Shown one piece after another: positions 18,001 through 21,000 of a DNA stretch of 21,112 bases. This DNA comes from a virus. The number at the start of each line of letters is the position of its first letter. Position 1 is the stretch's first letter. The stretch lies in the UHGV virus genome UHGV-0072395; one strand, given 5' to 3'. Position numbers: made by a program.

Positions 18001-21000
18001 AATCTGGCGAAAACCAGGCGAGACCTACAGGTTTACCGCTGGTGGCCGCTAAAGGGGATACGTCAAACACGCTCTCGCAATAGTGCAATGTGTCAGGATG
18101 GTTAGTGCGGTGCATGGCCACAGCGTTTTCGTCGTGGTTAATGGCAATATCAACGCTGCGCCCGATCGCCATTTCTATCCCGGTAGATGCCCCGCCGCCG
18201 CCAGCAAAATTATCAACAATCAGCTCACGCATGGCTCGCCCCCTGCATGCTTTCAACCAGTCCACCAGCAATAGCGATGATTTCACTGGTGGGCATACGC
18301 TCCAGCCAGAGCTGGTTAATATGTGCTTTCAGCTTGTTTTGATGGGACAATTCCATGCCTTCGGCTCCTTCAACCTGTCGAAACAACAGCCCTACTTCCA
18401 ATGGCCAGATCCGTGATTCCGTCTCCGGTAATTCGGAAGGTGCAGCAGGTGGTTCTACTGCTGTCGGCTGAGGATTCATTTGTGCTGGAATATTGCCAAC
18501 AGCAAACTGTGCCAGTCTCATAAATGCCTGGCCTTTAGCCTCCAGGTCGGAGCGGTGGATATAGCTAAAACTCTCGCCGCGCCAGGTCTTATCAAATACT
18601 GCAATGGCCCCTGCAAAGAACGCGCTGGTAGGCTTCTGCTTTTCGTCGGCCGGCACAAACCACGCAGGTAGATCGAATCCAATTCGACCACGAATAAACA
18701 TGATGTGATCAGCATCTTCCGGCCACCATGTTTCGCTTGTTGCTGACTTCACGAGGTAAATGTAGCGACCGCCCTTCTCACGCTGCTCGGTGGTATAGTT
18801 CATGATATGAGCCATGCCTGTGATGGCTTGTTTTTCATGGTACTGCGAGCGGCTATACGGCGGGTTAGCAAAGGCCGCGCCGCCGAGTTCTACCAGACGA
18901 CCAGACCAGTCCTGCGTCAGCGCATTATCTTCGGCGGTGTACCATGCCGGGCATTTTGCATTGCTGTCATCAGCGAACAGATCCAGAACCAACGGACCAA
19001 ACATCGCGTTGATCCCCCAGAACAGTAGCTCCGGAGTGCGCCATTGATCCCCTACGTCTTTCAGGTAATGGGCGCTACACTGGCGCTGCTCTTCGAGCGC
19101 AAGGCAATAGGGGCTGATGGTTTTCACTGCCGTTATCTCTTCGGCGCTCATCAAATCCTCAACTTCCTGAATCATAGTTTTCCCCTACGCTGATCAGCTC
19201 GTACGAGTGCCCTTAGAAACCAGTAACGGCGGTCAAAGCTGAAAATGCCTCTGGTGAGTAATGCAAAATTTCTGCGGAATAAAACATCGTGCTTCCACCA
19301 GGTTCGCCAGTGATTGATCCGTAAATGGCGGCGGATCGAGCTAATTAATCGGAGCACAGATCACCTCCGCAGTAATTACCGGCCAGCACGGAAATTCCGC
19401 TGGTATTCATCCCACTTTTGGCATTGCGCACACACTGGTTTTTCATCCGCATATAACGCTCTCTGGATTTAACGCTGCAGTTTGAATCGCACAGCTGCTG
19501 CCAGACCGTCGCCGCCCGGCGGAAGTAGCGCCGGCTTTCCAGGCTCCTCGCCACCAGTTCCAGATTGCGCATTGCTTCTGAGGTATCCTCTGGCTGGATT
19601 TTGTCATTTCCTTCAGGGCTACCGGCGACACGATAACGAAATACACTCGACGTTTCGGCACTCGCCAGACGGCCCTCGTAATACATGCGGTGTACCGCGT
19701 TCTTCACAGACATGGGGTTGCACTGAGGGAATGCCGCAATGATGTCCCGCATCATCACCCCAGGGTTTTTCTCGATAAACTCGAATGCCGATTTAGCAAT
19801 AATCATCCCCGGAACCCCGCTGGAATTGTGTTTTGTACCGGACTAACTGAATTGATATCTCGTGGCTTGTTTTTGTCCCATGCCTCTCTTGGCGGCCGGC
19901 CTTTAGCATCCCAGCGGATAGCGCTTTGCAGATAGCCTTCGAATTTTTTTGGGCCAAAGAGCGTCTCAGGTCGCATGTACTGGTATTGCTCGTCGTTTTC
20001 ATGCCAGTGCTCATGCTTCAGGTCGATTACCAGTTTCAGGTCGCTGACGGCATGTCCATCGCGTAGACGGGCACGGATGTTTTCCAGGGAGGATTTTGAT
20101 TTCTGGAAACGGGAACCGCTGACCTGGTTCAGGTGGGCCAGAACTTCGATCGCATGATCGGTAATAACCACTTCAGGATCCGGCTTATCGTCGGGATCCG
20201 CAGGAACCCGACAAGAAGGTTTTTTAGATGACGGATCTAATGACGGATCTAATGACGGATCGCCTTCAACCATTGAGGGGTCCCCCGGCAATATTTGAGG
20301 GGATGCAGACCCATTATTTGAGGCCTCAGATTTTGACCCTTCAAATTTTGAACCCTCAATTTCTGAGGCCTCAAATTTTGATTGTTCCTTAGGAGGCGAA
20401 TAGAAAATTTTTGCCTCTGCAGCTGCACGCTCCAGCATGTCTACGTTTAGTTTGTAGACGTTCGAGTTATTCTTCCCACCAACCCGGCGCTCTTGTTTCT
20501 TCAGCCACCCTTTTGCTTCCAGTTTTTTAATAGCGCTGCGTACAGTATTCTCACTCTTGGCACCGATCTGGCGCTGTATAGTGGTCACAGCAGGCCAGGA
20601 AACGCCTTCATCGTTGCTGAAGTCAGCCAGGCGGGCCATGACCGCTATTTCGGATATGATCAGGCCTTTGAAAGCGCATGCTTCCCAGACCAGACCGTGT
20701 AATTTACTGCTCATGGCTGCCCTCTACTTCCCTGAACTTGCGTTGAAACTGATCGAGTGGGCTGAAACATTCGTGCGGATACCCTTCTCGCAGGTAAATG
20801 ACACGCCGTGTCTCAGGCTCCCAGCGGATGACTCTGACGGGCTTTCCGTAGTGATCTTTGAACTTTCGGTTAACTTCTCGCATAGCGCTTTAGCCCTCCG
20901 GTTAAAGACCCCCACAACTCCACGCGCCCGGCTGTGGTTACATTCGACCCACTTCCCGCATACCATGCGTTCATACCGAAACGACGAAACACCCGGGATC

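What the first reader, a model, noticed from the sequence alone, without database searches (positions are those of the whole stretch)
20229..20380. Two sets of direct repeats inside the replication initiator gene: probable iteron-type origin
Three 12-bp repeats (20229..20264) and four to five 14-bp repeats (20316..20380) lie in the linker region of the replication protein gene, encoding DPSLDPSL and SKFEAS/EIEGSKFEGS. In phage lambda the origin is a set of iterons embedded in the O gene linker, so this is probably the prophage replication origin. Repeat number could also vary by slippage.
Basis: partly seen in the sequence, partly recalled or inferred. Interest (0 to 1): 0.5.

Follow-up and report, generated by a model that had tools for sequence, protein, structure and literature searches.

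The report
Replication origin inside phage initiator gene
The two repeat sets are real and, together with a neighbouring palindrome, most likely form the prophage's replication origin, built like the phage lambda origin and embedded in the linker of its own initiator gene; this is an ordinary member of a known kind, with a conserved cluster of GATC methylation sites as its one unusual feature.

Summary
Both repeat sets exist at the stated place, on the minus strand, in the linker of a 303-aa initiator gene (19803..20714; HTH_36 plus Phg_2220_C). The longer repeats have a 15-bp period, not 14. There are four tandem units, one degenerate unit and two dispersed units, each holding the palindrome TCAAAATTTGA.

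Among 20 distinct close relatives, third-codon-position variation collapses across window 20175..20384 (12/70 variable sites against 174/234 outside, p=9e-18). First and second positions are not more conserved there, so selection acts on the DNA.

All 64 non-redundant relatives share one layout:
- an array of 3-9 units of 15 bp;
- a conserved element with GATC sites, two sites 24 bp apart in most relatives and three 12-mers in this clade;
- an A-rich tract;
- in about half of them, a 23-bp palindrome.

The least stable DNA of the gene lies in the GATC/A-rich element. Lambda has the same order: iterons, AT-rich region, palindrome.

The origin reading is therefore supported, though only by comparison. 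The 12-bp repeats are probably the unwinding element, possibly Dam/SeqA-sensitive, rather than iterons. Copy number is fixed in the close clade. I rate it a new member of a known kind.

The parts
19803..20714 (-). Replication initiator gene, 303 aa. It has an N-terminal winged-helix DNA-binding domain (about aa 1-100), an unstructured linker (about aa 103-185) and a C-terminal Phg_2220_C domain (aa 191-263).
   Evidence: Pfam HTH_36 2.5e-9 and Phg_2220_C 2e-23. PHROG 428 'replication initiation protein' 3.3e-62 and PHROG 391 'replication initiation O-like' 2.9e-30. A single-sequence AlphaFold model shows the winged helix and no structure in aa 103-185, at low confidence.
20175..20384 (-). The whole stretch under DNA-level constraint, which I propose as the origin (gene nt 331-540).
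   Evidence: In 20 distinct close relatives, third-position diversity is 0.00-0.10 here against about 0.35 in the flanks. Variable third positions are 12/70 inside and 174/234 outside (Fisher p=9e-18). First and second positions are not more conserved (22/140 against 62/468, p=0.49).
20322..20381 (-). Four tandem 15-bp units, the probable iterons. Each has the 11-bp palindrome TCA[A/G]AA[A/T][T/C]TGA followed by a 4-bp G/C spacer.
   Evidence: Relatives that share the N-terminal domain have 3-9 such units at the same gene position.
20307..20321 (-). Degenerate fifth unit of the array (TCAAATAATGGGTCT).
   Evidence: It is in register with the array but lacks the right half-site.
20284..20298 (-). 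Dispersed unit TCAAATATTGCCGGG.
   Evidence: In the close relative L100 the same position reads TCAAATATTGAGGGA.
20262..20276 (-). Lone unit TCAATGGTTGAAGGC, directly abutting the GATC element.
   Evidence: Most of the 64 relatives have a lone unit (mostly TCAGAATCTGG) at this position, 33, 48 or 63 bp after the array.
20226..20261 (-). Three 12-mers, each starting with GATC (GATCCGTCATTA twice, then GATCCGTCATCT). This is the clade-specific form of a family-wide element, GATCCGTCAGTA-N12-GATCCRTCA. I propose it as the unwinding element and a Dam/SeqA target.
   Evidence: The least stable 30-mer of the gene starts at gene nt 473 (window about 20213-20242).
20213..20225 (-). A-rich tract AAAAAACCTTCTT.
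20190..20212 (-). 23-bp palindrome GTCGGGTTCC-tgc-GGATCCCGAC.
   Evidence: It is present in 30 distinct sequences (29 from the 32 of 64 relatives that carry this palindrome type, plus phage F1055). 89.7% of cells are paired, against 19-42% when the partner column is slid. One pair covaries (GC 22, CG 6, UA 1), and those changes alter the encoded amino acids.
18225..19175 (-). Phage Dam-type N6-adenine methyltransferase gene, two genes downstream. It is a possible partner of the GATC element.
   Evidence: Pfam Dam 6.3e-44. A Dam homologue lies within the fetched downstream flank in 30 of 63 relatives.

Best explanation
Window 20175..20384 (minus strand) is the prophage's origin of theta-type replication. 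It lies in the part of the initiator gene that encodes the unstructured linker between the DNA-binding domain and the C-terminal domain.

Inferred mechanism:
1. Dimers of the initiator's N-terminal winged-helix domain bind the dyad-symmetric 15-bp units. There are four in tandem, with further units nearer the next element.
2. The resulting nucleoprotein complex strains the adjacent, least stable DNA. That DNA is the three GATC 12-mers plus the A-rich tract, and it opens.
3. The C-terminal Phg_2220_C domain then brings in the host helicase machinery. No phage helicase or loader gene is evident among the genes next to the initiator.

The 23-bp palindrome bounds the element, as the palindrome does in lambda ori. 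The closely spaced GATC sites probably make firing or re-firing sensitive to Dam methylation and SeqA.

What is shown: the repeats, the DNA-level constraint, the conserved layout and the low duplex stability. What is inferred: binding, unwinding, helicase recruitment and methylation control.
For: - Synonymous-site diversity collapses across exactly this stretch in 20 distinct close relatives, while first and second codon positions are not more conserved.
- In 64 non-redundant relatives the repeat zone uses TCA/TCT for 83% of serines (26% elsewhere), AAA for 95% of lysines (64% elsewhere) and GAC for 73% of aspartates (48% elsewhere). These are the codons that spell TCAAAATCTGAC.
- The GATC element has almost invariant codons: GAT 59/64 (the five exceptions are this clade's preceding iteron-like GACCCCTCA), TCA 54/54 and GTA 54/54. 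Invariant residues of the N-terminal domain use mixed codons.
- The order of parts is the same as in lambda ori, read directly from the lambda record with its annotated iterons.
- Phage F1055 shares the C-terminal domain (76%) but not the N-terminal domain. At the same place it has a different array (23 bp x 4) followed by a 12-bp x 3.7 array.
- Relatives with the same N-terminal domain type but a lambda-O-type C-terminal domain keep the 15-bp array.
- The least stable 30-mer of the gene starts within 0-29 nt after the first GATCC in 47 of 64 relatives, the window included.
- Distant homologues also carry two repeat tiers in mid-gene. In Staphylococcus phage 80alpha, whose initiator shares the Phg_2220_C domain, that stretch is annotated 'putative replication origin' in the record.
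- No other reading frame stays open across the element, there is no promoter-like or terminator-like site, and no Rfam family matches.
Against: - There is no experimental evidence of origin activity or of initiator binding for this family, and I found no paper in the held library containing these repeat sequences.
- The array lies next to the N-terminal coding part, so the fact that it tracks the N-terminal domain could reflect linkage rather than recognition.
- The A/T richness of the proposed unwinding element is modest in this clade. The 30-mer free energy is -35.0 kcal/mol against a gene mean of -41.1 (sd 2.9), and a stretch at gene nt 240 is almost as unstable.
- In this single sequence the 15-bp DNA repeat is partly explained by the peptide repeat (14/300 simulations reach its score).
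- Palindrome covariation rests on one base pair and probably only two or three independent events.
Confidence: 0.8

Rival explanations
1. The repeats only reflect a repetitive, flexible peptide linker (S-K-x-[D/E]-x pentapeptides and DPS motifs) and have no cis-acting DNA role.
For: Both periods are multiples of three, and the repeats are in frame and encode repeated peptides. The linker is predicted to be unstructured. With the protein held fixed, 14 of 300 synonymous redraws still give a 15-bp array as strong as the observed one.
Against: Third codon positions are the most constrained positions here, the opposite of what protein-level selection gives. Codon choice is nearly invariant across 64 diverged relatives. 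The perfect 12-bp array is never recovered from the protein sequence alone (0/300). The units are dyad-symmetric, and the palindrome's covarying changes alter the amino acids.
Confidence: 0.04
2. The conserved stretch is a module-exchange junction. It looks conserved because it is where N- and C-terminal modules recombine, through recent homogenisation, and it has no origin function.
For: The same N-terminal domain type is found joined to two unrelated C-terminal domains, lambda-O-type and Phg_2220_C, with the switch just after the conserved element. Overall diversity, not only synonymous diversity, is about twofold lower in the stretch.
Against: Homogenisation would lower variation at all codon positions alike. 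Here first and second positions vary as much as elsewhere and only third positions collapse. The element is conserved from Yersinia to Providencia while the synonymous sites of the adjoining domain are far less conserved (major-allele frequency 0.75 against 0.50). Being a junction does not explain the dyad-symmetric tandem units or the stability minimum. In lambda the origin sits at the same domain boundary, so the two readings are compatible.
Confidence: 0.06
3. The repeats are operator sites for transcriptional control, either autoregulation by the initiator or binding by another regulator, or they form an internal promoter or RNA element for the downstream genes. They are not an origin.
For: Winged-helix initiators of iteron plasmids also act as autorepressors (general knowledge). 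The next gene encodes a PerC-like putative activator.
Against: No promoter-like or terminator-like site is found in the stretch and no RNA family matches. The sites lie 330-520 nt inside the gene rather than at its promoter. The motif occurs nowhere else in the 21 kb. The layout matches known origins.
Confidence: 0.05
4. This is a variant of the main explanation. The GATC 12-mers are not a passive unwinding element but a second class of initiator-binding sites whose occupancy needs fully methylated GATC, as with the 11/12-mers of Vibrio cholerae chromosome II.
For: There are three exact 12-mers each containing GATC. GATC is conserved at the DNA level in all 64 relatives. The core GATCCGTCA resembles the half-site GACCCGTCA of the majority iteron. 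RctB binding to GATC-bearing 12-mers needs methylation (PMC2865523).
Against: The element does not change when the iteron type changes: the window, L105, L106 and majority types all keep GATCCGTCA or a close variant. That argues against recognition by the specificity-determining part of the N-terminal domain. It also coincides with the stability minimum.
Confidence: 0.2

Closest known systems
Phage lambda ori (four 18-19-bp iterons, an AT-rich region and a palindrome inside gene O)
   Same: It lies inside the initiator gene at the boundary between the DNA-binding and C-terminal domains. The order of parts in the direction of transcription is the same: dyad-symmetric direct repeats, then the least stable A/T-rich DNA, then a palindrome (PMC3349717, PMC7466680). 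Some relatives of this initiator carry a lambda-O-type C-terminal domain.
   Different: The N-terminal domain is HTH_36, not Phage_rep_O (PF04492), and has no detectable pairwise similarity to lambda O. The units have a 15-bp period and abut one another, rather than being 18-19-bp sites with spacers. The unwinding region carries conserved GATC sites, and I see none in the lambda AT-rich stretch. No lambda P-like gene follows the initiator gene here. The C-terminal domain is Phg_2220_C.
Origins proposed inside gene 18 of Salmonella phages P22 and L
   Same: Each initiator has its own distinct repeats near the centre of its own gene. These were identified by sequence inspection and taken as the origin (PMC8022706).
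   Different: The repeat sequences and initiator sequences differ, and those phages encode a DnaB-type helicase (gene 12) next to the initiator.
'Replisome organizer' genes of Gram-positive phages with an internal origin (for example Staphylococcus phage 80alpha, annotated putative origin)
   Same: They share the C-terminal Phg_2220_C domain (36% identity over aa 190-280). The 80alpha record annotates a putative origin in mid-gene, just upstream of that domain. It contains a longer repeat pair followed by A/T-rich 15-bp repeats.
   Different: The N-terminal domain and the repeats are unrelated. In 80alpha a DnaC-like loader gene follows, whereas here a PerC-like gene and a Dam gene follow.
GATC-bearing origin elements: the oriC 13-mers, P1 oriR and the Vibrio cholerae oriII 12-mers
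   Same: These are short tandem repeats of 12-13 bp containing GATC, placed next to initiator-binding sites. The three 13-mers of the E. coli oriC unwinding element each begin with GATC (my own knowledge). P1 plasmid replication needs methylated DNA, and oriII 12-mers need methylation for RctB binding (PMC2865523). [quoted passage not shown]
   Different: There is no sequence similarity to those repeats, no DnaA box nearby, and no evidence here for methylation dependence. A phage Dam gene is linked in only about half of the relatives within the flank examined.

Membership tests
Lambdoid-type phage origin embedded in the initiator gene | It is located inside the initiator gene, between the DNA-binding domain and the C-terminal domain. 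| tested here: met
   The repeats lie at aa 112-163 of 303, between HTH_36 (aa 22-71) and Phg_2220_C (aa 191-263).
Lambdoid-type phage origin embedded in the initiator gene | It has several direct repeats with internal dyad symmetry (iterons). | tested here: met
   Four tandem units plus three further units, each with the palindrome TCARAAWYTGA.
Lambdoid-type phage origin embedded in the initiator gene | An A/T-rich, easily melted region lies next to the iterons on the C-terminal side. | tested here: met
   The least stable 30-mer of the gene is at gene nt 473, and at the equivalent position in 47/64 relatives. The A/T richness is modest in this clade.
Lambdoid-type phage origin embedded in the initiator gene | The repeat sequence is specific to the type of initiator N-terminal domain. 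| tested here: inconclusive
   Arrays differ between N-terminal domain types and are independent of the C-terminal domain type. Physical linkage of the array to the N-terminal coding part would give the same pattern.
Lambdoid-type phage origin embedded in the initiator gene | The sequence is under selection as DNA, not only as coding sequence. | tested here: met
   Third-position constraint, p=9e-18, and motif-dictated codons.
Lambdoid-type phage origin embedded in the initiator gene | The initiator binds the repeats, and the fragment supports replication when the initiator is supplied. | not testable with these tools
   This needs EMSA or footprinting and a plasmid replication assay.
Lambda O protein family (Pfam Phage_rep_O, PF04492) | The N-terminal domain matches PF04492. 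| tested here: not met
   The window protein hits HTH_36, not PF04492. Lambda O hits PF04492 at 5.7e-36. BLASTP of the two finds nothing. PHROG 391, labelled 'O-like', does match at 2.9e-30.
Phg_2220_C 'replisome organizer' initiators | The C-terminal domain matches PF09524. | tested here: met
   2e-23 over aa 191-263, covering the full profile.
Methylation-controlled origins (oriC, P1 oriR, V. cholerae oriII) | GATC sites are clustered in the origin beyond chance and conserved. | tested here: met
   Seven GATC sites lie in 130 bp, the densest spot in the 21 kb (P=0.0016 by simulation). The GATC pair or trio is conserved in the 64 relatives, with GAT used in 59/64 and 57/57 aspartate codons.
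Methylation-controlled origins (oriC, P1 oriR, V. cholerae oriII) | Initiation, or its timing, depends on Dam methylation or SeqA. | not testable with these tools
   This needs replication assays in dam and seqA hosts. The start-to-start spacing of 12 or 24 bp (8 or 20 bp between sites) is close to one and two helical turns. That is compatible with SeqA's stated preference for sites on roughly the same face, but these exact spacings were not among those in the passages I read (PMC2691817).

The most novel reading that the evidence does not exclude
The conserved GATC element is a methylation-gated unwinding element. On this reading the origin fires only when its 12-bp-spaced GATC sites (24-bp-spaced in relatives) are fully methylated, by host Dam or by the Dam encoded two genes downstream. 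SeqA sequesters it while the sites are hemimethylated. That would give a temperate-phage origin the once-per-round, oriC/P1-style control, conserved in more than 60 lineages of Enterobacterales prophages.
Probability: 0.3. Interest if true: 0.6.

Novelty: new member of a known kind. Interest (0 to 1): 0.35.

Why it matters
It assigns an origin of replication, with its parts at base resolution, to a widespread group of Enterobacterales prophages. The group includes relatives in Klebsiella, Escherichia, Shigella (SfII, SfIV), Yersinia and Providencia, and their initiators are annotated only as 'replication protein O', 'primosomal protein' or 'hypothetical'.

It also gives a clean example of a coding sequence whose synonymous sites are held fixed by an embedded cis element. 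Anyone recoding, annotating or estimating selection on such genes needs to know this.

The conserved GATC element is a concrete, testable handle on whether temperate phages couple origin firing to Dam methylation.

Tried and rejected
- **Overlapping gene.** I tested whether one could explain the constraint. The antisense and alternative frames that are open in the window (20228..20392 plus strand, 20249..20428 minus strand) are not kept open in relatives. The best alternative frame is open in only 21 of 64. Rejected.
- **Internal promoter, terminator or known RNA.** None found.
- **DnaA boxes near the element.** The only TTWTNCACA match in the window is at 16168.
- **Homology of the initiator to lambda O.** None by BLASTP or Pfam for the N-terminal domain. 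No solved structure is related by sequence.
- **E. coli complete genomes.** No near match to the gene, so copy-number comparison had to use IMG/VR and GTDB loci.
- **Literature.** Searches for the repeat sequences and for Phg_2220_C found no description of this origin. A search for SfIV replication found nothing useful.
- **Host-Dam dependence of GATC conservation.** I tried to use a locus labelled Pseudomonas lundensis (L075). Its G+C content (48.7%) looks low to me for that species, so the host assignment is doubtful and it is uninformative.
- **Formal correlation between N-terminal domain and iteron sequence.** I did not pursue a Mantel-type test, because physical linkage would produce the correlation without any binding.
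- **Structure model.** The single-sequence AlphaFold model is of low confidence (mean pLDDT 48). I used it only to show that the linker has no predicted structure.
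Full report
**Observation.** The window's last kilobase holds a 303-aa gene on the minus strand (19803..20714). Tandem Repeats Finder reports a perfect 12-bp repeat (2.8 copies, 20228-20261). It also reports a 15-bp repeat (3.9 copies, 20324-20381), which can be read as a 30-bp unit (2.2 copies, 20317-20381). The repeat finder gives the same copies and shows that the 15-bp array is dyad-symmetric.

The period of the longer set is 15 bp, not 14. On the gene strand the units are TCAAAATTTGAGGCC, TCAGAAATTGAGGGT, TCAAAATTTGAAGGG and TCAAAATCTGAGGCC. A degenerate fifth unit and two dispersed units follow. The 12-mers are GATCCGTCATTA twice, then GATCCGTCATCT.

Chance does not explain them:
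- No codon-shuffled version of the gene gave a tandem repeat scoring 60 or more (0/300).
- The 15-bp motif occurs only here in the 21 kb (4 matches against 0.14 expected).
- With the protein held fixed and synonymous codons redrawn, the 12-bp array was never recovered (0/300). The 15-bp array was matched in 14/300. In this one sequence the 15-bp DNA repeat is therefore partly a consequence of the peptide repeat.

**The gene.** The protein has an N-terminal HTH_36 winged-helix domain (aa 22-71) and a C-terminal Phg_2220_C domain (aa 191-263). It matches phage families annotated as replication initiators (PHROG 428, 3.3e-62; PHROG 391 'O-like', 2.9e-30). The repeats encode aa 112-163, between the two domains. 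A low-confidence single-sequence model shows no structure for aa 103-185.

The surrounding genes form a lambdoid-type early operon on the minus strand. In order they are DUF4222, the initiator, a PerC-like protein, a Dam methyltransferase, a C5 methyltransferase, a LexA-like protein, RusA and KilA-N, with terminase genes further on. The nearest deposited phage is Klebsiella phage Kp4866-6, at 86.9% over the gene. No E. coli complete genome has a near match.

**Selection acts on the DNA.** I collected 160 related loci. Twenty distinct sequences form a close clade with the window, all 912 nt long. Along the gene, third-codon-position diversity is about 0.35. It falls to 0.00-0.10 between gene nt 331 and 540 (window 20384..20175), while diversity at first and second positions is not lower there. 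Variable third positions number 12 of 70 inside and 174 of 234 outside (Fisher p=9e-18). For first and second positions the counts are 22/140 and 62/468 (p=0.49).

This is the signature of a cis-acting element laid over a weakly constrained linker. No other reading frame stays open across the stretch in relatives. No promoter-like or terminator-like site and no known RNA family is found there.

**Family-wide anatomy.** Sixty-four relatives that are less than 90% identical in DNA share one layout:
1. An array of 3 to 9 units with a 15-bp period. Each unit has an 11-bp palindrome, TCARAATYTGA in most relatives, followed by a variable 4-bp spacer.
2. A lone unit 33, 48 or 63 bp further on.
3. Directly after it, the element GATCCGTCAGTA-N12-GATCCRTCA.
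4. An A-rich tract.
5. In 32 of the 64, a 23-bp palindrome GTCNGGTTGC-NNN-GCAACCCGAC. Others have a shorter inverted repeat with an 11-nt spacer, or a palindrome resembling the lambda one.

Codon use shows that the DNA motif, not the peptide, is what is kept. In the repeat zone 83% of serines are TCA or TCT (26% elsewhere), 95% of lysines are AAA (64%) and 73% of aspartates are GAC (48%). In the GATC element the codons are almost invariant: GAT 59/64 and 57/57, TCA 54/54 and 49/49, GTA 54/54. Invariant residues of the N-terminal domain use mixed codons, although that control motif was found in only 25 of the 64.

The two GATC sites are 24 bp apart in 53 of 64 relatives. The window's clade has three sites at 12-bp spacing. 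In the window, 130 bp around the element hold seven GATC sites, the densest spot in the 21 kb (P=0.0016).

**The two repeat sets differ in kind.** The 15-bp units differ between groups with different N-terminal domains. The window clade and L106 have TCAAAATTTGAGGCC-like units. L105, L006 and L108 have TCAAATATTGAGGGG or TCAACGGTTGACCCC. The majority has TCAAAATCTGACGCA.

The units are independent of the C-terminal domain. Phages with a lambda-O-type C-terminal domain (PhiR49_1; homology to lambda O, E=6e-26) keep the array. F1055 shares the window's C-terminal domain at 76% but has another N-terminal domain. At the same place it has 23-bp x 4 repeats followed by 12-bp x 3.7 repeats. This is what iterons do, though linkage of the array to the N-terminal coding part would give the same pattern.

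The GATC element, by contrast, is the same across all these iteron types. The thermodynamically least stable 30-mer of the whole gene starts within 0-29 nt after its first GATCC in 47 of 64 relatives. In the window that is gene nt 473, about 20213-20242, with -35.0 kcal/mol against a mean of -41.1. I therefore read the 12-mers plus the A-rich tract as the unwinding element rather than a second iteron set.

The palindrome is paired in 89.7% of cells (19-42% when partners are slid). One pair covaries (GC 22, CG 6, UA 1), and those changes alter the encoded amino acids. This is modest support for selection on the palindrome itself.

**Comparison with known origins.** I read lambda ori from the lambda record. 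It has four annotated iterons (ATCCCTCAAAACGAGGGA and variants), then an A/T-rich stretch, then the palindrome ATTCGTCAGAGAATTCTGGCGAAT, all inside gene O (PMC3349717, PMC7466680). The order and position are the same here.

The window's N-terminal domain is not a member of the lambda O family. This is therefore an origin that works like lambda's rather than a copy of it.

P22 and L have been proposed, on the same kind of evidence, to carry their own iterons inside gene 18 (PMC8022706). Distant homologues of the window protein also have two tiers of repeats in mid-gene. In Staphylococcus phage 80alpha, which shares the Phg_2220_C domain, that stretch is annotated as a putative origin.

Precedents for GATC-bearing short repeats next to initiator sites are:
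- the three 13-mers of oriC (my own knowledge);
- the P1 plasmid origin, and the 11/12-mers of Vibrio cholerae chromosome II, whose binding by RctB needs methylation (PMC2865523);
- SeqA, which binds tandem hemimethylated GATC sites lying on roughly the same face of the helix (PMC2691817). A 12- or 24-bp spacing is compatible with this.

A phage Dam gene lies two genes downstream here, and within the fetched flank in 30 of 63 relatives. No DnaA box is nearby.

**Mechanism proposed.** Initiator dimers bind the 15-bp units and form a nucleoprotein complex. The adjacent GATC/A-rich DNA melts. The C-terminal domain then recruits host helicase machinery, since no phage helicase or loader gene is evident among the genes next to the initiator. 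The GATC sites may tie firing to methylation state. All of these steps are inferred. What is shown is the DNA-level constraint, the conserved layout and the stability minimum.

**Slippage.** Copy number is identical in all 20 close sequences. Across the wider family, arrays range from 3 to 9 units. One Providencia locus (L058) carries a 60-bp duplication. L073 has three 24-bp GATC units. Copy number therefore changes over long evolutionary times but is not visibly unstable.

**Verdict.** The origin interpretation is supported by comparative evidence (confidence about 0.8). The feature is a new member of a known kind. The conserved GATC element is the part most worth an experiment. I found no paper in the held library that describes this origin family, but subscription journals are not covered.

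Noticed in passing
window 20704..20883 (minus strand): A 59-aa DUF4222 gene overlaps the initiator's start codon by 11 nt. A homologue sits immediately upstream of the initiator in 47 of 63 relatives. It may be a conserved partner of the initiator, but its function is unknown.
   Followed up: partly
window 19345..19806 (minus strand); L003 3445-3933: The gene after the initiator encodes a PerC-like or YfdN-like small protein (PHROG 1324 'transcriptional activator'), not a lambda P-like or DnaC-like loader. This holds even in relatives whose initiator has a lambda-O-type C-terminal domain. How the helicase is recruited is open.
   Followed up: no
window 16145..18286 and 18225..19175 (minus strand): Two DNA methyltransferase genes lie in tandem and overlap by 62 nt. 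One is a Dam-type N6-adenine enzyme. The other is a 713-aa protein with a C5-cytosine methylase domain only in its first 140 residues or so.
   Followed up: no
L005 (Salmonella phage F1055) 2289-2395 and 2432-2474: This initiator has the same C-terminal domain but a different N-terminal domain. It carries its own two-tier repeat set, 23 bp x 4.1-4.7 (GCGGAAACCCCGCAAAC) then 12 bp x 3.7 (ACAGGAGATTAC), followed by the same palindrome. It is probably a second origin specificity built on the same plan.
   Followed up: partly
L058 (Providencia MAG) gene nt about 310-430; L073 (Pectobacterium) gene nt 466-540: There are copy-number variants of the origin parts. L058 has a duplicated 60-bp block giving eight tandem units. 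L073 has three 24-bp GATC units instead of two.
   Followed up: partly
L076 and L084 (E. coli chromosomes): The first 79 codons or so of the initiator's N-terminal domain run into an unrelated 1368-nt reading frame, and no repeat region follows. This looks like a deletion remnant of a prophage.
   Followed up: no
L002 (Yersinia phage YeP2) 260-757: A perfect 249-bp tandem duplication (2.0 copies, 100%) lies in the repressor region. It matches the two 'SOS-response repressor' CDS in the record. It is either an assembly artefact or a real duplication.
   Followed up: no
window 4320..4361: A GGCGGT hexamer repeat, 6.8 copies (score 68), is the only other strong tandem repeat in the window.
   Followed up: no
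window 9956..11131 (plus strand): A gene for a 37-kDa nucleoid-associated protein (Pfam NA37) lies on the strand opposite to the phage operons, followed by a 417-aa ORF with no family match. It may be cargo.
   Followed up: no
L050, L040, L058, L066, L070, L071 downstream of the GATC element: In relatives with a lambda-O-type C-terminal domain, the sequence after the GATC element (for example TCTTCGTCGCAGAATTCTAGCGAATCCAGCGAC) resembles the lambda ori palindrome region (TTCGTCAGAGAATTCTGGCGAATCCTCTGAC). The right arm of the origin seems to travel with the C-terminal module.
   Followed up: partly
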